A stretch of DNA of 22,489 nucleotides. Origin: a virus. Its lineage: Duplodnaviria; Heunggongvirae; Uroviricota; Caudoviricetes. Below the pieces are notes generated by a model. It made no database searches and had not been told where the DNA came from. It was given only the letters and a program-made list of their open reading frames with translations. This document shows, piece by piece, positions 7,330 through 21,406 of the stretch. Within the stretch, counting starts at the first letter, position 1, and every line of letters starts with the position of its first letter. The translations under genes were made by a program, and so were the position numbers. The stretch spans positions 1-22,489 of IMG/VR virus record IMGVR_UViG_2778261588_000007, one strand, 5' to 3'.

Positions 7330-7807
7330 TTTAGTTCTTGCGGCATTACGTAAGCTCGGTGTGGCATCAAATGCCACGTTAACCGATGTCGAACCGCAGT
7401 CTATGGAAGACGGCGTCAACGACCTTGAAATGATGATGGCTGAATGGCTTGGTGGTGATGTGTCACCTGGCATCAACGTTGGCTACATTTTTGCTGATGC
7501 AGATATCGCTCCGGATCCGGGAGATGAGCACGGCTTATCAAATAACGCTATCAATGCCGTCATTTTCAACCTTGCCTGCCGCATTGCTCCAGATTATGCG
7601 CTGGAAGCGTCTGCAAAACTTATAACCACTGCCAGATACGGGAAAGAGCGACTCGTCAAACTGTCTGCAATGGACAGAGCAAAAGCCGCTAAATGTAAGT
7701 CCGGTTATCCAAACCGTATGCCTGTTGGTAGCGGTAACCAGTTGGCGAAGTGGAACGGTTGGAGTTACTTCCACCGGAAGGAACCTTGCGATAACGGGAG
7801 CGAATAA
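7307..7807 (+). CDS. head completion / portal-binding protein (P22 gp4 homolog)
   Basis: 166 aa from the internal ATG at 7307 ([32 protein letters not shown]...); matches P22 gp4 in length and sequence. The upstream part of ORF 7202..7807 is only the QS-frame of the repeat. Confidence 0.9.
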
Positions 7808-9226
7808 ATGCCGATTCAGCAACTTCCGCTCATGAAAGGCGTCGGCAAAGACTTTCGAAACGCCGACTATATCGACTATCTGCCAGTGAATATGTTGGCT
7901 ACACCCAAAGAAATCCTCAACAGCAGCGGATATCTTCGCTCATTCCCGGGCATTGCCAAACGTTCTGATGTGAACGGCGTATCGCGAGGCGTCGAGTACA
8001 ACATGGCACAGAATGCTGTTTATCGCGTGTGTGGTGGCAAATTGTATAAGGGCGAAAGTGAGGTCGGTGACGTCGCCGGAAGTGGTCGCGTATCAATGGC
8101 GCATGGTCGGACATCACAGGCGGTAGGCGTTAATGGTCAACTGGTCGAGTATCGTTATGATGGCGCGGTCAAAACCGTCTCAAACTGGCCTACAGACAGC
8201 GGATTCACACAGTATGAGTTAGGCTCGGTCCGCGACATTACGCGCTTACGTGGGCGTTATGCGTGGTCAAAAGACGGAACTGATTCATGGTTTATCACTG
8301 ACCTTGAAGACGAATCGCATCCTGACCGCTACAGCGCACAATATCGCGCAGAATCGCAGCCGGACGGCATCATCGGCATAGGTACATGGCGAGACTTTAT
8401 CGTCTGCTTTGGTTCATCGACGATTGAATATTTTTCCCTGACAGGTGCAACCACCGTTGGTGCTGCTTTGTATGTCGCACAGCCATCACTGATGGTGCAA
8501 AAAGGCATCGCCGGGACTTACTGCAAAACGCCATTCGCTGATTCTTATGCGTTCATCAGCAATCCGGCAACAGGTGCGCCGTCTGTGTATATCATCGGCT
8601 CCGGTCAGGTATCACCAATCGCCAGCGCGAGCATTGAGAAAATACTACGCTCCTACACTGCTGATGAACTGGCTGATGGCGTGATGGAATCGTTGCGGTT
8701 TGATGCTCATGAGTTGCTGATTATTCACCTGCCGCGCCACGTCCTCGTGTACGACGCATCTTCAAGCGCCAATGGTCCGCAATGGTGTGTACTGAAAACA
8801 GGCCTGTATGACGATGTGTACCGCGCTATCGACTTCATTTACGAAGGCAACCAAATTACGTGCGGCGATAAGCTTGAATCGATGACAGGGAAATTGCAGT
8901 TCGATATCAGCAGCCAGTACGACAAGCAACAGGAACACCTGCTGTTTACTCCGTTGTTCAAAGCGGATAACGCCAGAGTTTTCGACCTTGAAGTTGAATC
9001 GTCAACTGGCGTTGCGCAGTACGCTGACCGCCTGTTCCTCTCTGCAACCACTGACGGCATAAATTACGGTCGTGAGCAGATGATTGAGCAGAATGAACCG
9101 TTCGTTTACGACAAACGCGTTTTGTGGAAGAAAGTAGGGCGCATCAGGAAAAACATTGGTTTCAAATTGCGCGTTATCACGAAGTCACCTGTCACTCTGT
9201 CTGGCGCTCAGATAAGGATTGAGTAA
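7808..9226 (+). CDS. packaged-DNA stabilization / tail hub protein (P22 gp10 homolog)
   Basis: 472 aa, same length as P22 gp10; syntenic position; start directly abuts the gp4 stop. Confidence 0.9.
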
Positions 9227-11086: not shown

Positions 11087-12553
11087 ATGGCTACTTGGCA
11101 AGGATCAAATGGCGGATTGTTGGCTGGTATCGGTGGCGTCAACTCAAACGCTCCGAGCGTAAATGACATCGGCAATACGCTTCAGATTATCAGGCAGAAC
11201 AATGATATTGAGCGTTCAGGCGCTAACAATGTTGGTCTTACTGCTTTGCAAGGCCTTTCAGGTATTGCGGGGGTGTTTCAGCAGGAAAAGCAGGCTCAGC
11301 GGCAGAAAGAATTTCAGCAGGCATACGCTAATGCTTATGCGTCTGGTGATCGCGGTGCTTTGCGTCAGTTGGCTACTCAATATCCAGACCAGATTGAATC
11401 CGTTCGTAAAGGCATGGGATTCATTGATGAAGACCAGCGTAATTCTATCGGCACCTTAGCGGCTGGCGCACGCCTTGCGTCATCGTCTCCAGAAGCAATG
11501 CAATCATGGCTGCAAAACAACGCCAAGGAACTGACTCGCGTCGGTGTTGACCCTAACAGTGTTGCTCAGATGTATCAGCAGAACCCTTCAGGATTTGGTG
11601 AGTTTGTTGATCACCTTGGAATGGCTGCTCTTGGTCCGATTGATTACTTCAATGTTCAGGACAAGATGGCTGGTCGTGAGATTGACCGAGGCAGACTGGC
11701 AGAGACAATCCGCAGCAATCAGGCCAGCGAAGCACTTCAGGCGAGAGGGCAGGATATTAGCCGAGCAAATGCGTTAACGTCAGCATATGCACCAACAGCC
11801 GCAATGCAGAATTACAATCAGTACGCGCAAATGTTAAAGGCAGATCCAGATGGTGCAGCGGCATTTGCGGCAGCGGCGGGAATTAATCCCAATGCTAAGA
11901 AATTACTTAAGGTTGAAACCAATCCTGATGGCTCGGTAACTAAGTATTACACCGATGGCAGCGAGGAAGCCGGAAAACTAAACCAACCTATATCTGGTGA
12001 TGGCATTAAACCAATTAGCTTGCCACAAGCGCAAAGCATCATAGATAAGGCTAATGAGGGTTCCAAGAAGGCGGCAGGATTTGCTTTGCGATTAAAAGAT
12101 TCAATGGACTCAATGAATCAGCTTAGTAAAAGCATTGACCCTAAGCGAGTTGCATTAATAAATCGCTCTCTTGGTGATGGGACTATTGCAAATTTAAGCC
12201 TATCACCAGCGGAGCAGCAATATATGGTAAATGCGAGAGACGCATTGTATGCAATTTTGCGCCCAGAAACAGGTGCAGCAATTACTCTGCCAGAGATGCA
12301 GGAGTATTCCAAAATGTACCTGCCTCAGCCCGGTGATTCCAAGGCTGCTACTGAAACAAAAATGCGAAAAATGCAGGGCCAATATAACTCATTACGTGGT
12401 CAGTCTGGTCGCGTTTATGATGCTTTGGTGGTTTCAAGTGCTGCAAATAGTCAACAACAGAGCAATAGCCAACAACCGACAAATACCCAACAGCAGCAGA
12501 GTCAATCCGGATCATATACCTCAAAATCAGGCATTCAATTTACGGTGGAATGA
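11087..12553 (+). CDS. ejection protein, P22 gp20 homolog
   Basis: 488 aa; syntenic; Gly/Gln-rich low-complexity ends typical of ejection proteins. Confidence 0.8.
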
Positions 12554-14397
12554 TGAAAGTAACTGCAAACGGTAAGACATTTACCTTCCCTGATGGTACG
12601 AGCACGGAAGATATTGGCACCGCCATTGATGAGTATTTTGCTGGTCAGGCTGTTCAGCAACAAACAGTTAATCAGGCCAATAATGAACCAGCACGTGAAG
12701 AACCATCATTGATGCAACAAGCTGGCGATTGGCTCACAGGTGGTCAAAGTGCAGGGCAAATTGCAGAGCAGGCTGGTCGTGGTCTGGTAAACATACCATT
12801 TGACGTATTGCAGGGTGGCGCAAGTCTGATTAATGCAATCAGTCAGGGGCTTGGTGGGCCAAAAGTATTGGATGATGTCTATCGTCCAGTCGATCGACCG
12901 ACAGACCCTTATGCGCAAGCTGGAGAAACAATTGGCGGGTATTTAGTTCCAGGAGTTGGAACGGCAGGAAGCATGGCTATTGGATCACTGGCAGAGGCCG
13001 CAAATCAGAAAGGCGATTTCGCACAAAATGCAGCTAAAAATGCCGGAGTTAACCTTGCCGCTCAGGGTGTTCTTTCCGCAGCAGCAAAGGGAATAGGGCG
13101 TGGAATAACGGCTATAAAAGGTGATATTGCGCCAGAAGTGGCGAAGAAAATAGCCACATCAGAATCGATGGGTGTGACACCAATGACATCTGATGTTATC
13201 CCGCCGAAAAATGCTTTCACTCGCGGACTTACTCAGGATGCCGAGGGGGCTTTGCTCGGGACAGGCTCAAAGCGAGCGGAGCAATATGCAACGCGTAGTA
13301 AGCTGGTAAGCAATTATTTTGACCGTTTTGGTGAGTACAACCCTGATGATGTGGTGAAATCTCTGACCACCACGTTAAGGGGACGGAAGGATGCCGCTGG
13401 CGCTGTTATCAATGACGTCACCAATAAAATGGGTAATGCCGCAGTTGATACCACAAATACCATGAATGCTCTGAATACAGCGATCGCAAGACAGGAACGG
13501 CTTGGGACGTCTGCCAATCAAAGCCTGCTTACATCCTTGCGTAACCTACGTGAAGAATTAGCAAACCCTGCAACTGATTTGGATGTTACGTTTGATCTCT
13601 TGCGCCAGCACAGAACAGCATTTAGATCTAATGTTCAGGGAGATGCTATGGTCTTCCCCAACCAGGCAAAAGCAGCTACCAATATGGTAGAGAATGCAAT
13701 GTCAAAAGACCTTCGTAACGCAGTTGCAAAAAACCTCGGTGCGTCAGACGCAGCAAAATACCTTAAAGCAAATTCCGATTATGCAAACGTTTATAATAAG
13801 GTGCTTAATAAAAACATTGCTAACAAGCTCAACAAGGCAAGCAGTGAAGCCAGTCCTGAACTTATAAATACCGTTGTATTAAGCAGAAAACCATCTGACG
13901 TGAAACGAATCTGGAGCGCATTGGATGATAAAGGGAAAGATGCTATGCGTGCAGCTTACGTCAGCAAAATAGCGGAAAAGGCCGGTGACTCTCCAGCCAA
14001 GTTCATCACTGAAGTTAATAAGCTGAAATCTCAGTCAGGTGGTGAAATTTACAACACTATTTTTTCTGGAAAGCACATGAAAGAGCTTGATTCTCTTCAT
14101 GAAGTTCTACAGCAAACAGCAAGGTCAGACACCGCAAATGTAGTAACTCAGACGGGGCAATCGCAAGCCAACAGGATAAGGACGATTGGCGCAACTGCGA
14201 CTCTTGGCGTATCAATGGGGCTTGAGGCTGGTTTCGGTGCAATGATGCGCTTGTATGAGTCCAAGGCAGCAAGGAATGCTCTCTTACGTTTGGCAAACAC
14301 CAAAGCAGGAACACCAGCCTATGAAAGAGCGCTAAATAATGCTGCAAATGCGATACGCCCTATACTTTCAAGCCAAATTACAGCAGAACAGCAATAA
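12550..14397 (+). CDS. ejection protein, P22 gp16 homolog
   Basis: 615 aa (P22 gp16 about 609 aa); ATGA overlap with gp20; last gene of the + strand late operon. Confidence 0.8.
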
Positions 14398-14411: not shown

Positions 14412-14897
14412 CTACCTGATATTACTGCTACTGTTGCATGTTACCGTGTTTCCAAATCCTGAATTGCAGTTTGTATATGTGTCAACGCGTGTTGGGTAAG
14501 GTTGAGTTATAACAGGCTGGCGCGCTTTTTGCTCGATCGCTTGCATTGTGTTTACAGCCTGATAATTCAATAAAGCCTGCTGGAATGATTGGCTTTGTGC
14601 TATTTGTTGGGCTTGTTCTTGGCTTTGTAATTGAACATAAAGATTCTGAAGCTCAAGTCTTGCCTGTGCGTCACTTATCTTGCCTTCATTGACACCTTGC
14701 CCGAGCATCTTTGCAGCAAGGACATACAGCTTAGGTGTTGGTGCTGATGCCATGCGTGAGTCGTTCTTCACACTGGCATCAAGGCAATTAGCCATATCGC
14801 TAAGCTTTTGATAGCGTTGTTCGCAACTTGCTTGATAGTCACTTACTTTTGCGCATCCAACCAGCAGAAGCGGGATAATTAACAGTGATTTTTTCAT
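14412..14897 (-). CDS. secreted lipoprotein of unknown function (candidate superinfection-exclusion factor)
   Basis: Start chosen at MKKSLLIIPLLLVGC (ATG at 14897) with AAGGAG about 9 nt upstream; lipobox L-V-G-C; mature part has a Gln-rich predicted helical segment and a C-terminal C-x9-C pair. Sits downstream of mnt on the same strand, at the position of sieA in P22. Confidence 0.7.
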   Translation of the reverse strand: MKKSLLIIPLLLVGCAKVSDYQASCEQRYQKLSDMANCLDASVKNDSRMASAPTPKLYVLAAKMLGQGVNEGKISDAQARLELQNLYVQLQSQEQAQQIAQSQSFQQALLNYQAVNTMQAIEQKARQPVITQPYPTRVDTYTNCNSGFGNTVTCNSSSNIR

Positions 14898-14967
14898 ATG
14901 GTTAACTCTCCTTAGTTTTTCACAGGATATCATGAAGGCTATGCCATTTTAGCCGGAAACTAGATTT

Positions 14968-15234
14968 CTATGTTTCCTTTTTATTATTGCTATACATGGT
15001 CTTAAGCGTTTCAAAAACCATTTTCTTAACCATATCAGATTGTTGTTCTGCCATACGCTCTGCATCGTCAATGTAAACGGATGCAGAGCTTTGTTTAGCC
15101 AATGATTCTTCAATCGCTGCAATTATCTCTGAGTTCAGCGACCTGTTATTCATCTTCGCACGCTGTTTAATTTTCGCGTGGAGTTCATGCGGAAGTCTCA
15201 AGTGAAACTGCGCCTCGTCGTATTTGCTGTACAT
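14968..15234 (-). CDS. mnt: Mnt-like ribbon-helix-helix repressor
   Basis: 88 aa from the internal ATG at 15234; FHLRLPHELHAKIKQRA..NRSLNSEII.AIEESLAK and DDAERMAEQQSDMVKKMVFETLK align with remembered P22 Mnt (83 aa) along its whole length. Confidence 0.8.
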   Translation of the reverse strand: MYSKYDEAQFHLRLPHELHAKIKQRAKMNNRSLNSEIIAAIEESLAKQSSASVYIDDAERMAEQQSDMVKKMVFETLKTMYSNNKKET

Positions 15235-15355
15235 CCTTGATGCCTCACCAGTTGGGTGGAATGGCATCGTAACCTACTGGATAAATACTCAATAGTACCA
15301 TTTCGGTATGCAATCACATCATGGTTGCATCATATCATTCGTCTGGAGCAATGAA
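15235..15355. promoter_or_regulatory. divergent intergenic region between mnt and tailspike; probable promoters and operator
   Basis: 121 bp non-coding; imperfect inverted repeats CCAGTTGG...CCTACTGG (15247-15279) and TGCAATCA...TGGTTGCA (15309-15329); tailspike RBS GGAG at 15345-15348. Confidence 0.35.
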
Positions 15356-17257: not shown

Positions 17258-18685
17258 TTAACAAACTCTATCGCCATACACGACGATAATATCTTCACCA
17301 ATTTTAAATACATTATAATATCTTGTTTTTATTATTGGTGATGATTTTTTTTCACAAACCTCATTTAACTTGTTAACTTGTACTGTTTTTATCCATGGTG
17401 CCAAATTCTTAACACTTAATTGCTGCATCATTGATACAGCAATCCATGGTACAGCAGGGCTATACACAAATTTGAGGAACGGTGTTGCCTCAATCATTTT
17501 CCAAGTAATAGGAGAGTCGTATATCCTTCCATAAGTGTATACCTCGCCGTTAAAGTCAAGCCTTCCCAAATCATTAGCCACCATCTCCATGACAAATTCC
17601 TCATATTTCCTTTGCTCTTTTATGGCATTTGAAAATTGGAATGAAGTGGTTATGGTGATAAACAACATTACTACAGAAATAAAATAAAAAGATTTTTTTC
17701 CGAATAATTTATATATGGAAAAAATAACTATCGCTATGGATGCTGACGCGCCTGATAGAACCCTTATATCTGTAATCCCTTCCTTTAATAAAAATGCTGG
17801 TCCAGGCAATGCTAATAATAGCGCTAATGGTGATAATAAATTGGATGAGCACTCTAAAAACCCTAGGGATAACTGATGTTTGACCTTTTTAACATAACAA
17901 ACAAAATAGGATAACAATCCAATGTAAACAGGAATCAAAAAAGATATCCCAATGGGTTCTATATATTTAAAAGTCTTATTAATAGATTCATAAAGAGATG
18001 ATGGTATGTCTGCGAATGACACCATTATAGATCTATTGTCAGCACCATATTTCATTATATAAAACATAGTGACATAATATAATGCATATGTTACTACGAA
18101 TGTCAGTGCAAGATGATATGATTTGTTTTTCCCATTACCAAATAAAGCATTGTATGCAATTAATGATATAAATATGTTTGCGCAAGGCTGGTATAAGCTT
18201 AAGCATGAAAATAAAGAAACAATGGATAATAATGACTTTGGAAATGATCTAATGTCAAATACAAAGAATGACAGCATACATAATGAATTTGCTAAAATCA
18301 TCGTTAATGCGTCAAATTGAAAAGACACGTTTTGTATAAACAATGGACTCACAAAAATGATTGTGAGCATAATGGATATCTGCAGAGAGTCTTCTTTTTC
18401 AACAAGATAATTACAAATATAATAAATTATTGCTGATGCAATGAATATACCAAAGAACAACGGAAGAGGAGCAGCGCTTGGTAATAAATCAAAATTAAGA
18501 GAAAAAATATGCATTACAAAATCAGAAAGTGGCCTACCAAGCCCTCCCCATGCAGAAAATGAATATACAGACCTTGCCACATCATCCCTATAAAGGACAT
18601 CAGCAGACACTATTGGGTAACAAAATATAAATATAATTGATAATGGTATGTAAAAATATTTAGAATTAAACATTCCTATTTTCAC
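17258..18685 (-). CDS. type-specific O-antigen glucosyltransferase (GtrC / Gtr-type), polytopic membrane protein
   Basis: 475 aa, many predicted TM helices, strongly AT-rich coding sequence; start overlaps the gtrB stop; third gene of a gtrA-gtrB-gtr(type) operon. Confidence 0.8.
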
Positions 18686-19595
18686 CTTTCTTTAGTATGT
18701 ACTTTGGTCTTTTTTTGGTTTCTATGTATATGCGTCCAATGTATTCACCAAGGACACCAATCCCAATCAATTGAATGCCGCCAAGGAAAAGTATGGAAAC
18801 CAACAGTGACGGGTATCCAGGAACACTATTACCGAAAAGAATCTTATCTAAAATCATCCACGCGCCATAAATGAATGACAGGCTGGCGACAGCAAGTCCG
18901 ATGTATGTCCACATGCGCAATGGGAAAGTTGAGAAGCTTGTTATGCCTTCCAGTGCCAGATTCCATAGCTTCCACCCATTGAATTTTGAGTTGCCGGCAA
19001 CGCGTTCAGCTCTTGCATACTCAACAACATCAATTTTACCGCCAACCCATGACAAGACGCCTTTCATGAAAAGATTGCGCTCAGGAAGCAATTTAATGTT
19101 TTCAACAACTTCTCGCGACATCAGGCGAAAATCACCCACGTTCTCTTCGATTTTTGGGTTGCTAATCTTGTTGTGTAGCTTATAGAACCACTCAGCCGAT
19201 TTGCGCTTTAGCCTTCCATCGGTAGATCGGTCTGTTCTCTTAGCCAGAACCATATCAGCGCCATCCTGCCATTTTTGAATGAGGTGAGGGATGACATTGA
19301 TAGGGTCTTGCAGATCAACATCAATTGGAATGACCGCTTCCCCGGTTGCATTATCAAGCCCTGCAAACAGGGCTGGTTCTTTACCAAAGTTTCGTGTAAA
19401 TGACAGCGGAACAACTAGAGGATCTGAAACGGACAGAGCGTTAATGATTGACTCCGTAGCGTCTTTGCTACCATCATTTATAAAAACAATTTCCACTTCA
19501 TATGGCTTCAACTCTTCGAATTCACGTACCGTTTTATAAAAAATAGGTATCGCTTCCTCTTCGTTGAAGACAGGAACGACCAGAGATATCTTCAT
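18666..19595 (-). CDS. gtrB: bactoprenol glucosyltransferase GtrB (GT2 family)
   Basis: 309 aa; N-terminal GT-A fold signatures ([25 protein letters not shown]) and two C-terminal TM helices; high similarity to remembered GtrB/YfdH. Confidence 0.9.
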
Positions 19596-19954
19596 TTCGC
19601 ATCCCTAAAGACAATGAACTTTGAATAGACGAAACCGCACACTAGGCTGATGGCGGAGAAGGTGACAAGAGTGACAATTGGAGGAAGTGCACATTTATCG
19701 GCAGCCCATCCAACAGTAGCACTCAGTGTTCCCATGAATCCTACATATAACATGTAGCGCATCGTTGTAGTCGAAGCTTTGAATGTGAATTTTGCATTCG
19801 CGAAGAAGCTAAAGCTCACAGCCACAACGAAACCTGCGAAGTTTGCAAGAGCCTGATTGGTGTGCGCGGCATAGATACATACACCAAAAACCACCCAATG
19901 TATAAGTGTGTTCAGCACACCAATCGAGGTGTACTTTGCAAATAGCTTTAACAT
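19592..19954 (-). CDS. gtrA: GtrA flippase-like small membrane protein
   Basis: 120 aa, four predicted TM segments; [20 protein letters not shown]... matches GtrA/YfdG; ATGA overlap with gtrB. Confidence 0.9.
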
Positions 19955-20100
19955 TTCTTCTATCAGCTAATAATCAAAGGCATGAAGTCTATCATCCAAG
20001 CATCAATCGATCGATGACTTGCTGTGGTTGATGAGACAAAACTGAGATACACAAGGCTTTGTGACATTCGATAGTGGTTAAGGTCGATCACTCCACCTTT
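19955..20100 (-). promoter_or_regulatory. gtr operon promoter region, overlapping the 3' end of int; contains GATC sites and ATAG/TCGAT motifs
   Basis: GATC at 20009-20012 and 20086-20089; repeated TCGAT/ATAG-containing motifs (ATCGATCGATGA, TTCGATAGTGG, GGTCGATCACTCC). Confidence 0.35.
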
Positions 20101-21245
20101 TCATCAAGCCAGTCCGCCCACCACTGCATCATTTCTCTGCGCTTATCGAGATACTGAGCATGGTTGTAAATCCCACGCACAGATCCGCCGTTGGCATGTG
20201 CCAGTTGCACTTCAATAGCATCAGCAGGCCATTCGTGCTCGTTCATAATCGTGCTGAATTCATGCCTGAATCCGTGACCGCTTTCCAGACCCTCATAGCC
20301 GATTTGTTTGATCACAAGCAGTACCGCGTTCTCGCAGATTGGCTTCTTCTTATCGTTGCGCCCGGCAAAAACAAACTCTGATACTGGTTTGGTGATTGAG
20401 CTTAGCGTAGTGAGAAGTTCAACCACCTGGTCTGACATAGGAACCACATGAATTTTGCGTCCTTTCATCACACTGGCGTCGATGGTGATAATCCTGTTTT
20501 CAAAATCGACGTTCTTCCATAGCATGGAACGAAGCTCTTTCGTTCTTAGGGCTGTGTAGCGTAAAACTTTGGTCGCAATGAGCGATACGATACTTCCTGA
20601 AAATGTTGCCAGTGCTTTGTTGAATGCAGGGATCTGGTCTGCAGGAAGAAACGGGAAGTTCTTCTTGCGGTATCCCTTCATGGCGTCAGCAAGGTCAGGT
20701 GCCGGGTTATATTTAGCCCTACCAGTGACAATAGCGTAACGGAAAACCTCGCCGCATCTTCTGCGGGCTTTGTTGGCTCGCTCCATTGCACCGCGATCTT
20801 CAAATCTGCGGATTACTTCCAACAGTTGCATCGGCTCAATATCCTGAATCTCAAGACCGCCGATGATGGGTAAAATGTCGTCATCAAACATTTTGGCAAG
20901 TTCAGTTGCATAGCCTACTGACCAGACTTGCTTCTTGTGCTCGTACCATTCCTTGTAAATCGCACTAAAGGAATTGTTGTTAGACGAAGCCTTTTTCGCC
21001 TTTACCGGATCGATGCCAACCGAGATGTCTTTCCTCGCAGTCCATGCTTTATCCCTTGCCTCTTGCAAAGTCATAAGCGGATATTTTCCGACGGTCAGGA
21101 TTTTCTCCTTACCGTCAATCTTGTAGCGAAGCTGCCATACCTTTTTCCCGGATACAGGGACATAAAGGTACAGGCCATTACCATCGAGAAGGCGGTATGG
21201 TTTTTCTTTCGGCCTTGCTGCTTCAATCTGCTTAACGGTGAGCAT
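20088..21245 (-). CDS. int: tyrosine recombinase / prophage integrase (argW-associated, IntS-like)
   Basis: Start chosen at MLTVKQIEAARPKEK (ATG at 21245), 385 aa; C-terminal catalytic region GHGFRHEF...LAHANGGSVRGIYNHAQY (His-x-x-Arg and Tyr nucleophile); lies directly beside a tRNA gene. Confidence 0.9.
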   Translation of the reverse strand: MLTVKQIEAARPKEKPYRLLDGNGLYLYVPVSGKKVWQLRYKIDGKEKILTVGKYPLMTLQEARDKAWTARKDISVGIDPVKAKKASSNNNSFSAIYKEWYEHKKQVWSVGYATELAKMFDDDILPIIGGLEIQDIEPMQLLEVIRRFEDRGAMERANKARRRCGEVFRYAIVTGRAKYNPAPDLADAMKGYRKKNFPFLPADQIPAFNKALATFSGSIVSLIATKVLRYTALRTKELRSMLWKNVDFENRIITIDASVMKGRKIHVVPMSDQVVELLTTLSSITKPVSEFVFAGRNDKKKPICENAVLLVIKQIGYEGLESGHGFRHEFSTIMNEHEWPADAIEVQLAHANGGSVRGIYNHAQYLDKRREMMQWWADWLDEKVE

Positions 21246-21406
21246 GGGTAAAAATCCGGTGGGTAAAATTATTTTATCCACTTTTTACCCGTCATGGAGT
21301 GCGGCTGTCAACGATCTGACGCGAACCATTACGAACTGTTAATCTACGGAAGGCTTGATATTCAGGGGATTTTGCGGACTGGTACGGATGGGAGCGAACT
21401 GATAAA

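What the first reader, a model, noticed from the sequence alone, without database searches (positions are those of the whole stretch)
14412..15234. Mnt-like repressor plus secreted lipoprotein operon in the sieA/immI slot: candidate superinfection-exclusion module
Between the last ejection-protein gene and the tailspike, P22 carries sieA and the immI region (mnt, arc, ant). Here the same slot holds only two minus-strand genes: an Mnt homolog and, 70 bp downstream, a 161 aa lipoprotein (lipobox LVGC, Gln-rich helical core, C-terminal C-x9-C). I do not recognise the lipoprotein as any characterised protein. Its co-orientation with a repressor that is expressed in lysogens suggests it is made from the prophage and acts at the envelope, for example by blocking a secondary receptor or DNA entry of related phages, as the lipoproteins Llp (T5) and Cor (phi80) do for FhuA.
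Basis: partly seen in the sequence, partly recalled or inferred. Interest (0 to 1): 0.72.

Follow-up and report, generated by a model that had tools for sequence, protein, structure and literature searches.

The report
Prophage lipoprotein gene in sieA slot
A P22-like prophage carries, where phage P22 has its superinfection-exclusion gene sieA, a conserved but uncharacterised outer-membrane lipoprotein gene; a near-identical copy is transcribed from a dormant prophage, which makes it a good but untested candidate for a new phage-exclusion or host-conversion factor.

Summary
Between the gp16-type ejection gene (ends 14397) and the tailspike lie two minus-strand genes. One is an Mnt homolog (14968-15234). 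The other, 70 bp downstream, is a 161-aa lipoprotein (14412-14897: lipobox LVGC, Ala at +2, Gln-rich helix, C-x9-C).

The lipoprotein belongs to a real family under purifying selection (phrog_6067, no named function; dN/dS 0.05-0.26). It has no Pfam, NCBIfam, PADLOC or PDB relative. A confident AlphaFold model (pLDDT 88) matches only generic helical bundles.

In every close-homolog locus examined, spanning about ten enterobacterial genera, the gene abuts gp16 in a P22-like (pro)phage. That is SieA's position, and SieA never co-occurs with it. It is an optional cassette found in 186 of 5426 complete E. coli genomes.

Published RNA-seq of a 96%-identical copy (prophage Gally, E. coli LF82) shows transcription while virion genes are silent.

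The "operon with mnt" is only partly supported. The ancestral arrangement is mnt plus lipoprotein 17 nt apart, but in Gally the gene is transcribed independently of mnt. In the window it has its own extended -10-like element, inside a relic of an mnt 3' end.

Exclusion is plausible but untested; no similarity to Cor or Llp was found. This is a new protein family of a known kind of element.

The parts
14412..14897 (-). Lipoprotein gene (161 aa plus stop), member of phrog_6067, an uncharacterised family
   Evidence: ORF; phrog_6067 E 3.5e-109; 94 close homologs; dN/dS 0.05-0.26
14853..14897 (-). Signal peptide and lipobox (MKKSLLIIPLLLVG-C15); Ala at +2 predicts sorting to the outer membrane
   Evidence: Sequence; Cys15 nearly invariant; lipobox in 111/125 relatives, +2 never Asp
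14598..14852 (-). Conserved N-terminal helical-bundle domain (aa 16-100) with invariant Cys25 and Cys38 and the motif KLYvLaAK..G..V..G.isD.qAR.ELQ.lY
   Evidence: Alignments A1, A2, A5; AlphaFold model mb3c6c68de645, pLDDT 94-98 here
14523..14597 (-). Gln-rich distal half of one long helix (aa 76-125); this extension is absent from the shorter chromosomal relatives
   Evidence: Model helix H76-125; 125-140 aa relatives lack it
14415..14522 (-). Pro-rich linker and C-terminal beta-hairpin with Cys144-x9-Cys154 (type I module ...TNCNSGFGNTVTCNSSSNIR), exchangeable between alleles
   Evidence: Strands 139-146 and 152-159; C144 and C154 nearly invariant; type I and II modules reshuffled relative to the N-domain
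14898..14967 (-). 70-bp spacer between mnt and the lipoprotein gene; two small hairpins, no U-tract terminator
   Evidence: no promoter or terminator called; MFE -19.9 kcal/mol, z -2.9
14912..14933 (-). Relic of an mnt 3' end (ATGATATCCTGTGAAAAACTAA, compare Serratia ATGTATTCTGACAAAAAATAA = MYSDKK*). It contains the extended -10-like element TGATATCCT at 14924-14932, a candidate own promoter
   Evidence: Upstream comparison across 15 loci; position
14968..15234 (-). Mnt-type ribbon-helix-helix repressor gene (88 aa). Its last 10 or so codons resemble the Serratia-type allele linked to the lipoprotein
   Evidence: Pfam Arc plus Repressor_Mnt; 47% identical to P22 Mnt; chimeric C-terminus compared with Sf101
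15235..15352 (.). mnt-tailspike intergenic region, homologous to the P22 Pmnt/Pant/Omnt control region but without arc and ant. The operator-like palindrome TACCAtttcGGTA lies at 15296-15308
   Evidence: Alignment A4 with the annotated P22 region; position

Best explanation
The lipoprotein gene is a self-contained accessory cassette (a moron) of P22-like prophages. It occupies the same site as sieA, converging on the last ejection-protein gene.

Shown: it is a conserved gene under purifying selection, and it is restricted to this slot. A near-identical copy is transcribed from a repressed prophage.

Inferred from sequence and model: the product is exported, lipidated at Cys15 and sorted by Lol to the inner leaflet of the outer membrane (Ala at +2). 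There it would present a disulfide-stabilised helical bundle, a roughly 50-residue helix and a disulfide-clamped C-terminal hairpin to the periplasm. The hairpin comes in exchangeable variants.

Inferred function (the least certain step): it protects the lysogen against superinfecting phages at the envelope, after adsorption. This would be by interfering with assembly or passage of the gp7/gp20/gp16 ejection conduit, or with an outer-membrane secondary receptor. That makes it a functional alternative to the inner-membrane protein SieA.

Mnt is its ancestral upstream neighbour. In the window the gene may be read from Pmnt, from its own extended -10-like element, or from both.
For: - Real, constrained gene.
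- Export, lipidation and a periplasmic location: a lipobox in 111/125 relatives, no Asp at +2, and exactly four further Cys in 94 relatives.
- Architecture: AlphaFold model with pLDDT 88.
- Slot fidelity: in E. coli, Salmonella, Proteus, Providencia, Tatumella, Serratia, Klebsiella aerogenes, Yersinia and Morganella (pro)phages, and in one unclassified Enterobacteriaceae metagenome genome, the gene always abuts gp16 between gp16 and the tailspike.
- Only Lederbergvirus records carry it among 50,697 phage records.
- Presence/absence cassette: the same mnt allele stands alone in Sf101, IME10 and other prophages. The slot can also be empty or hold other exported proteins.
- No SieA in any lipoprotein locus. 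None of the 41 SieA-positive phage records is among the 5 lipoprotein-positive ones.
- SieA lies in this slot, blocks DNA injection, and is absent from two thirds of P22-like phages (PMC10883804).
- Prophage expression of the 96%-identical ortholog while virion genes are silent (PMC9928086 S1 Table).
- C-terminal module shuffling suggests a specificity determinant.
- A distant relative is cargo of an integrase/AlpA/primase island, next to a T5orf172 gene.
Against: - No exclusion phenotype has been tested for any member.
- There is no sequence or fold similarity to any known exclusion protein (Cor, Llp, SieA, Ltp, Imm, Sp, TraT).
- Distant relatives lie in ordinary chromosomal neighbourhoods (uvrC/bio, rluD/yfiH), and some have plain signal peptides. 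The fold therefore has a cellular role unrelated to phages.
- The gene pairs freely with gp16 types only 33% identical to each other, so no co-adaptation with the presumed target is visible.
- Expression in LB is modest (4.5 times background). It rises in DMEM and macrophages together with neighbouring genes on both strands, which fits host-adaptation or H-NS-type regulation equally well.
- The SieA anticorrelation is weak statistically. Type A SieA is a Salmonella feature, and types B and C might escape tblastn, although no SieA-like multi-pass membrane gene lies in the loci inspected.
Confidence: 0.4

Rival explanations
1. It is a lysogenic-conversion or host-fitness factor unrelated to phage exclusion. 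The outer-membrane lipoprotein would alter envelope properties (stress tolerance, serum or host-cell interactions, peptidoglycan or outer-membrane protein organisation), as lambda Bor does. It would have been exapted from a chromosomal lipoprotein family.
For: The ortholog is induced about 4-fold in DMEM and about 16-fold in macrophages at 1 h relative to LB. Chromosomal relatives lie in housekeeping contexts. The slot in other prophages collects other exported proteins of unknown role. The gene is present in pathogenic lineages (O104:H4, the adherent-invasive strain LF82, and O26-type strains).
Against: Deleting the whole Gally prophage did not change LF82 survival in macrophages (PMC9928086). 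The close family is confined to P22-like phages and to one slot, unlike general fitness morons, which spread across phage types. No similarity to Bor, Lom or TraT.
Confidence: 0.25
2. It has a lytic-cycle function, as T5 Llp does in 'lytic conversion'. Made during infection or induction, it would mask an envelope component so that progeny are not lost on debris or on already infected cells, or it would assist ejection or lysis.
For: It lies at the end of the virion-gene block and is retained in phages isolated as free virions (VSe13, Brookers, 720R6). In macrophages it rises together with the tailspike gene.
Against: It is on the strand opposite to the late operon. It is transcribed when late genes are at background. 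It is dispensable in many P22-like phages with the same neighbours.
Confidence: 0.1
3. This concerns the transcription unit only. mnt and the lipoprotein gene form one operon read from Pmnt, so that lipoprotein synthesis depends on Mnt autoregulation.
For: The ancestral arrangement has a 17-nt gap (Serratia L024-26, Proteus L005). The window spacer has no consensus promoter and no U-tract terminator. The Pmnt/Omnt region is conserved upstream of mnt.
Against: In Gally the lipoprotein is transcribed about five-fold above mnt in LB, with a divergent gene between them. Several prophages keep the lipoprotein without mnt. The window spacer carries TGATATCCT, an extended -10-like element shared with five other rearranged loci. 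It also has two hairpins. P22 itself terminates after mnt-orf59a and gives sieA its own promoter.
Confidence: 0.35

Closest known systems
P22 SieA (superinfection exclusion A)
   Same: Same genomic slot and orientation: minus strand, converging on gene 16, between gene 16 and the tailspike. Restricted to P22-like prophages. About the same size (164 against 161 aa). An optional cassette, envelope-located and prophage-expressed.
   Different: SieA is a multi-pass inner-membrane protein with a cytoplasmic FxRYPxEAxxFNK motif (PMC10883804). This protein has only a cleavable lipoprotein signal peptide and a soluble helical body. No sequence similarity.
Cor (phi80/N15/HK022) and Llp (T5) outer-membrane lipoproteins that inactivate FhuA
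   Same: Small phage-encoded lipoproteins predicted to sit in the outer membrane facing the periplasm. Accessory genes next to structural genes.
   Different: The only matches are to the signal peptide (PHROG Cor E 0.033, residues 1-31; Llp 8a60 E 0.24, residues 1-30). This protein is twice their size, with a different predicted fold (helical bundle plus stalk plus hairpin). P22-like phages do not use FhuA. Function untested.
Lambda Bor and plasmid TraT (outer-membrane lipoproteins for conversion or surface exclusion)
   Same: Prophage- or plasmid-borne lipoproteins expressed in the carrier cell.
   Different: No Pfam match to Lambda_Bor or TraT at E <= 0.1. No structural match.
P22 immI region (mnt, arc, ant)
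   Same: The mnt homolog and the Pmnt/Pant/Omnt-like control region are retained in the same place.
   Different: arc, ant, sar and orf59a are absent. The operator half-sites differ (TACCA...CGGTA against GTCCAC...GTGGAC). The Pant-equivalent would read directly into the tailspike gene.
phrog_6067 (PHROGs family of unknown function)
   Same: Full-length match, 1-161 of 161, E 3.5e-109. This is the family the protein belongs to.
   Different: The family carries no annotation. This work adds its slot, its lipoprotein nature, a confident model, its wider chromosomal superfamily and evidence of expression.

Membership tests
Bacterial lipoprotein (SPase II substrate, Lol-sorted to the outer membrane) | N-terminal basic n-region, hydrophobic h-region and lipobox [LVI][ASTVI][GAS]C | tested here: met
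   MKK-SLLIIPLL-LVGC15. A lipobox is present in 111/125 relatives, and Cys15 is conserved in at least 90%.
Bacterial lipoprotein (SPase II substrate, Lol-sorted to the outer membrane) | Residue +2 is not Asp (no inner-membrane retention signal) | tested here: met
   +2 is Ala. Across the family it is A/T/V/S/G and never D.
Bacterial lipoprotein (SPase II substrate, Lol-sorted to the outer membrane) | Actual acylation and outer-membrane localisation | not testable with these tools
   Needs globomycin sensitivity or palmitate labelling, and membrane fractionation.
phrog_6067 | Full-length match to the family profile | tested here: met
   E 3.5e-109, residues 1-161 of 161.
Mnt/Arc ribbon-helix-helix repressors (for the upstream gene) | Arc-type RHH DNA-binding domain plus the Mnt C-terminal tetramerisation domain | tested here: met
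   PF03869 8.4e-15 (residues 7-49) and PF11423 4e-12 (residues 57-81), both above the curated cut-offs.
Mnt/Arc ribbon-helix-helix repressors (for the upstream gene) | Palindromic operator overlapping divergent promoters upstream of mnt | tested here: inconclusive
   The region aligns with P22 Pmnt/Pant/Omnt. TACCAtttcGGTA sits where P22 has GTCCACgGTGGAC. Binding was not tested.
SieA superinfection-exclusion proteins | Sequence homology, several transmembrane helices, FxRYPxEAxxFNK motif | tested here: not met
   No tblastn match of P22 SieA to the window or to any lipoprotein locus. There is no hydrophobic segment beyond the signal peptide, and the motif is absent. Motif and topology are taken from PMC10883804.
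SieA superinfection-exclusion proteins | Position between gene 16 and the tailspike in a P22-like prophage | tested here: met
   This shows positional equivalence only, not membership.
Cor / Llp receptor-blocking lipoproteins | Homology of the mature domain (sequence or fold) | tested here: not met
Cor / Llp receptor-blocking lipoproteins | Blocks infection by inactivating an outer-membrane receptor | not testable with these tools
   Needs plating, adsorption and ejection assays.
Moron (autonomously expressed accessory gene in a prophage) | Presence/absence polymorphism between otherwise collinear phage genomes | tested here: met
   Sf101, IME10 and other prophages have gp16 | the same mnt allele | tailspike, without the gene. 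The slot is empty in L037.
Moron (autonomously expressed accessory gene in a prophage) | Transcribed in the lysogen while neighbouring phage genes are repressed | tested here: met
   Shown for the 96%-identical ortholog only: LF82_138 at 70 against a median of 15.6 in LB, and log2 10.3 in macrophages against gp16 at 3.6-4.1 (PMC9928086 S1 Table). Not measured for this exact locus.
Moron (autonomously expressed accessory gene in a prophage) | Own promoter and terminator | tested here: inconclusive
   Extended -10-like TGATATCCT at 14924-14932, but it lies in a relic of an mnt 3' end, so its conservation may reflect descent. No terminator was found.

The most novel reading that the evidence does not exclude
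The protein founds a new class of superinfection-exclusion factor for short-tailed phages. It would be an outer-membrane-tethered periplasmic 'stalk and hairpin' lipoprotein that intercepts the P22-type ejection-protein conduit (gp7/gp20/gp16) or its outer-membrane docking site from the periplasmic side. That differs mechanistically from receptor-masking Cor and Llp and from inner-membrane SieA. Its swappable C-terminal hairpin would set which phages are excluded.
Probability: 0.2. Interest if true: 0.72.

Novelty: new variant of a known kind. Interest (0 to 1): 0.52.

Why it matters
Only about a third of P22-like phages carry SieA (PMC10883804). What the others put in that slot, and whether it protects the lysogen, has not been studied.

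This lipoprotein is a widespread alternative occupant of that slot. It is found in 3.4% of complete E. coli genomes, including the O104:H4 outbreak lineage and the adherent-invasive strain LF82, and in about ten enterobacterial genera. It has no annotated function in any library searched.

If it excludes phages, it would define a new exclusion family acting from the outer membrane against podophage DNA delivery. It would also give a genetic handle on the periplasmic part of the ejection conduit, through escape mutants as was done for SieA. That would matter for phage-therapy host-range prediction.

If instead it is a host-adaptation factor, its strong induction inside macrophages makes it a candidate conversion gene. 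The original transcriptome study missed it because it fell just under a five-fold cut-off.

Tried and rejected
- Sequence libraries gave nothing for the mature protein. Pfam gave no hit and PADLOC gave no hit. NCBIfam gave only a sub-threshold GspK match (18.7 bits against a cut-off of 130). PDB gave nothing by phmmer or by profile.
- The PHROG Cor and PDB Llp matches are signal-peptide artefacts.
- Foldseek against BFVD gave nothing at E <= 1e-3. AFDB50 was unavailable.
- The search for related loci with the diverse alignment failed. With the close alignment it found only 5 genomes.
- The second word-indexed protein search, with distant members, returned just 4 proteins.
- The consensus promoter/terminator scan found nothing in the spacer. 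Rfam found nothing.
- I first read the conserved TGnTATnCT upstream element simply as a promoter. I then found that it is homologous to the 3' end of mnt (MYSDKK*), so its conservation cannot be counted as independent evidence.
- Literature searches found no paper that characterises the protein.
- I looked for a link between the C-terminal module type and the gp16 type or the presence of an SLT domain. None is apparent in the dozen loci at hand.
Full report
**1. What is in the sequence**

The window is the right arm of a P22-like (Lederbergvirus-type) prophage. Plus-strand virion genes end with a 615-aa gp16-type ejection protein (12550-14397). They are followed by a tailspike with the P22 head-binding domain, gtrC/gtrB/gtrA and an integrase.

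Between gp16 and the tailspike lie exactly two credible genes, both on the minus strand.
- **The Mnt homolog** is at 14968-15234 (88 aa). It matches Pfam Arc at 8.4e-15 and Repressor_Mnt at 4e-12 and is 47% identical to P22 Mnt.
- **The lipoprotein gene** begins 70 bp downstream and encodes 161 aa (ATG 14897, stop 14412-14414).
  - Its product starts MKKSLLIIPLLLVG-C15-A. It has a Gln-rich helical middle and ends ...TNC144NSGFGNTVTC154NSSSNIR.
  - The longer ORF from ATG 14933 listed is not the real start. A strong Shine-Dalgarno (AAGGAG, 14908-14913) precedes ATG 14897, and every homolog begins M-K-K.

P22 has 16 | sieA(-) | orf59a(-) | mnt(-) | arc, ant(+) | 9. The window has no sieA, orf59a, arc or ant.

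**2. The gene is real, conserved and constrained**

- The protein matches phrog_6067 (unknown function) over its full length at E 3.5e-109.
- It has 94 close homologs, all from Enterobacterales and all labelled hypothetical or lipoprotein.
- An HMM search of 1.8 billion representatives finds 252 relatives.
- Against close orthologs dN/dS is 0.05-0.26. For Salmonella phage VSe13, for example, dN is 0.028 and dS 0.58.
- Invariant or nearly invariant positions are Cys15, Gln22, Cys25, Cys38, Tyr58, Ala79, Cys144 and Cys154.
- Of 125 aligned relatives, 111 have a canonical lipobox, none has Asp at +2, and 94 have exactly four further cysteines.

This is what one expects of an oxidised periplasmic protein tethered to the outer membrane. 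Acylation and localisation are inferred, not shown.

**3. Structure**

With 30 close homologs AlphaFold gave a poor model (pLDDT 61). With a 125-sequence alignment that included distant relatives it gave a confident one (mean pLDDT 88.4, pTM 0.62). The model has these elements:
- helices at residues 18-28, 32-45, 47-51 and 53-70;
- one long helix at 76-125, whose first half completes a compact bundle and whose Gln-rich second half extends beyond it;
- a Pro-rich linker;
- a beta-hairpin at 139-159 carrying the C-x9-C pair.

**4. Genomic context across relatives**

In every locus of a close homolog that I could examine, the gene lies between gp16 and the tailspike of a P22-like element, converging on gp16. 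The loci are:
- E. coli prophages, including O104:H4 and LF82/Gally;
- Salmonella phage VSe13 and Proteus phage Brookers;
- Providencia, two Tatumella species and an Enterobacteriaceae metagenome-assembled genome;
- Serratia, Klebsiella aerogenes, Yersinia ruckeri and Morganella.

Among 50,697 phage records, the four that carry the gene and have an inspected record are all Lederbergvirus; a fifth, vB_EcoP-720R6, was not opened.

The gene is an optional cassette. The same mnt allele (96.5% identical) stands alone in the slot in Sf101, IME10 and many prophages. Elsewhere the slot is empty or holds other small exported proteins:
- a second lipoprotein, GALLYPH_14;
- a 104-aa secreted protein in O104:H4;
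- a single-pass membrane protein in Providencia;
- a 122-aa protein in strain 360D-1.

The gene occurs in 186 of 5426 complete E. coli genomes, always on the chromosome. The whole module as found in the window occurs in 106 genomes.

P22 SieA was found in none of the lipoprotein loci. None of the 41 SieA-positive phage records is among the five lipoprotein-positive ones. According to PMC10883804:
- SieA always lies in this slot;
- SieA is present in only 22 of 66 P22-like phages.

That paper does not mention the lipoprotein.

**5. Relation to mnt and transcription**

In Serratia and Proteus the mnt stop and the lipoprotein start are 17 nt apart. That is almost certainly an operon.

Comparing upstream sequences shows what lies before the lipoprotein start in the window. 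The 22 nt stretch ATGATATCCTGTGAAAAACTAA (14912-14933) is a decayed copy of the 3' end of such an mnt gene. The Serratia sequence is ATGTATTCTGACAAAAAATAA, encoding MYSDKK*. The same relic lies in front of the gene in these loci:
- VSe13, and a second E. coli prophage (strain CUVET19-970, locus L003);
- both Tatumella loci and the metagenome-assembled genome;
- the Yersinia, Morganella and K. aerogenes prophages, where mnt itself has been lost and the lipoprotein is the only gene in the slot.

The ancestral unit is therefore mnt plus lipoprotein, and the cassette has since been moved and uncoupled repeatedly.

The window's own mnt is a chimera. Its body is the Sf101-type allele, and its last 10 or so codons (TMYSNNKKET*) are Serratia-like. 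The junction lies near position 15001.

In the rearranged group a 1-nt insertion turns the relic into TGnTATnCT. In the window this is TGATATCCT at 14924-14932. It is an extended -10-like element about 27 nt before the ATG. Because it is conserved by descent, it is only a candidate promoter.

The spacer has no consensus promoter and no U-tract terminator. It folds into two small hairpins.

Upstream of mnt, the intergenic region aligns with P22 Pmnt/Pant/Omnt. The palindrome TACCAtttcGGTA (15296-15308) sits at the operator position.

**6. Experimental evidence from the literature**

E. coli LF82 prophage Gally carries a 96%-identical copy, GALLYPH_13 = LF82_138. The S1 Table of PMC9928086 gives these values.

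| Gene | LB overnight, normalised reads | log2(fpkm+5), LB | DMEM | Macrophage 1 h | Macrophage 6 h |
|---|---|---|---|---|---|
| Lipoprotein (GALLYPH_13) | 70.2 | about 6.1 | 7.9-8.2 | 10.3 | about 8.6 |
| gp16 (GALLYPH_12) | 13.7 | 3.6-3.9 | 3.6-3.7 | 4.0 | 4.1 |
| mnt (GALLYPH_15) | 13.2 | 3.6-3.9 | 5.7-7.1 | 8.9-9.1 | 8.3-8.5 |

- The prophage median in LB is 15.6, so the lipoprotein is at 4.5 times background. It is the second most expressed Gally gene after the c2 repressor (727).
- It falls just below the authors' five-fold moron cut-off of 78.1, which is why they wrote that Gally has no morons.
- In Gally a divergent gene separates the lipoprotein from mnt, so this expression is independent of Pmnt.
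- Deleting Gally did not alter survival in macrophages.

These data show that the gene is made from the prophage. They were not obtained on the arrangement present in the window.

**7. The wider family**

- Relatives of 125-140 aa share the bundle and the Cys-hairpin but lack the Gln-rich extension.
- Two that could be placed lie in ordinary chromosomal neighbourhoods: uvrC/bio/EarP and rluD/yfiH.
- One is cargo of an integrase/AlpA/primase island, next to a T5orf172 gene.
- A few have SPase I-type signal peptides.

The phage protein thus derives from a cellular periplasmic or lipoprotein fold of unknown function.

Within the phage subfamily the C-terminal 30 or so residues come in two discrete types:
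- type I, ...TNCNSGFGNTVTCNSSSNIR;
- type II, ...TTNCTTYGNQTRCQSY.

These types are reshuffled relative to the N-domain. Type I stays 91-94% identical where the N-domain has dropped to 71-72%. Alleles whose Gln-rich region is 96% identical carry type II. This modularity suggests that the hairpin is a binding or specificity element.

**8. Interpretation**

- **Firmly supported:** an accessory, prophage-expressed cassette that encodes an envelope lipoprotein, positionally equivalent to sieA.
- **Most likely function (about 0.4):** protection against superinfection at a post-adsorption envelope step. The basis is slot equivalence with SieA, non-co-occurrence with it, restriction to P22-like phages, the predicted periplasmic stalk-and-tip architecture, and the swappable tip.
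- **Main rival (about 0.25):** a host-adaptation lipoprotein. Induction in DMEM and macrophages and the chromosomal relatives favour it. The neutral ΔGally macrophage phenotype and the narrow phage distribution weaken it.
- **Less likely (about 0.1):** a lytic-conversion role like that of Llp.
valid for the ancestral arrangement, but neither necessary nor demonstrated here.

**9. Verdict**

The finding is real and reasonably interesting. It is a new protein family of a known kind of element (a prophage moron encoding an envelope lipoprotein), with a clear and cheap experimental test. It does not belong to any characterised exclusion family, and no function has been shown.

Noticed in passing
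window 14912-14933 (-) and 14968-15001 (-): There are two traces of an mnt 3' end. One is a decayed copy directly upstream of the lipoprotein ATG. The other is a Serratia-like C-terminus (TMYSNNKKET*) grafted onto an Sf101-type mnt allele. The 3' end of mnt seems to be a recurrent recombination junction for exchanging this cassette.
   Followed up: partly
window 15235-15352: mnt is an orphan here, because arc, ant and sar are missing. The region still aligns with P22 Pmnt/Pant/Omnt, with a variant operator-like palindrome TACCAtttcGGTA (15296-15308). A Pant-equivalent promoter would read straight into the tailspike gene, so Mnt may now control tailspike transcription. In LF82, mnt and the tailspike rise together in macrophages.
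   Followed up: partly
window 15308-15353: The tailspike ORF is listed from ATG 15308, but the P22-like N-terminus [10 protein letters not shown] begins at ATG 15353. The first 15 codons overlap the operator-like palindrome and are probably not translated.
   Followed up: no
window 17258-21281 (-): A gtrC-like (GtrII), gtrB and gtrA O-antigen glucosylation operon is followed by a tyrosine integrase. This is a second, well-known lysogenic-conversion and adsorption-blocking module in the same prophage arm.
   Followed up: no
lipoprotein residues 129-161 (window 14415-14513) and alignment A1: The C-terminal hairpin module exists in two discrete types that are recombined independently of the N-terminal domain. 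The type II tails, and most of the shorter distant relatives, end in an aromatic residue (...C-x-S-Y), whereas the type I tail ends ...SSSNIR.
   Followed up: partly
L004 3447-3866 (Gally GALLYPH_14); L002 5616-5930 (O104:H4); L008 about 7520-7990; L036 3617-3985 and 4124-4543: In other P22-like prophages the same slot holds other small exported proteins of unknown function. These are a 139-aa lipoprotein annotated transthyretin-like (very highly induced in macrophages in LF82), a 104-aa secreted protein, a single-pass membrane protein and a 122-aa protein. The slot looks like a collecting point for envelope-directed accessory genes.
   Followed up: partly
L011-L014 (metagenome contigs), gene at L011 5497-6030: A distant family member (P0138, 177 aa) is cargo of a small integrase / AlpA / primase-helicase island, beside a T5orf172/MUG113 gene. 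That layout is reminiscent of satellite or island defence hotspots.
   Followed up: no
L015 6208-6633 and L021 8001-8390: Other distant members (P0102, P0109) are single chromosomal genes among housekeeping genes (uvrC, bio genes and EarP; rluD and yfiH). The fold therefore also has an unknown cellular role.
   Followed up: no
L001, L024-L029 (the gp16 homologs next to the lipoprotein): Many gp16-type ejection proteins linked to the lipoprotein carry a lytic transglycosylase (SLT) domain and are 665-901 aa long, whereas the window's 615-aa gp16 has none. Nearly identical lipoprotein alleles sit next to gp16 types only 33% identical to each other.
   Followed up: partly
window 14898-14985 (-): The mnt stop codon lies inside a 6-bp-stem hairpin (GGAAAC...GUUUCC), followed by a second hairpin (GGCUA...UAGCC). 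The 101-nt stretch folds better than all 200 shuffles (z -2.9), but there is no U-tract. This may be an attenuating or stabilising element.
   Followed up: no
PMC9928086 S1 Table (LF82_138): The published statement that prophage Gally carries no morons rests on a five-fold cut-off (78.1). The lipoprotein gene misses it narrowly (70.2). By the authors' own data it is the most expressed non-repressor gene of that prophage in LB.
   Followed up: yes
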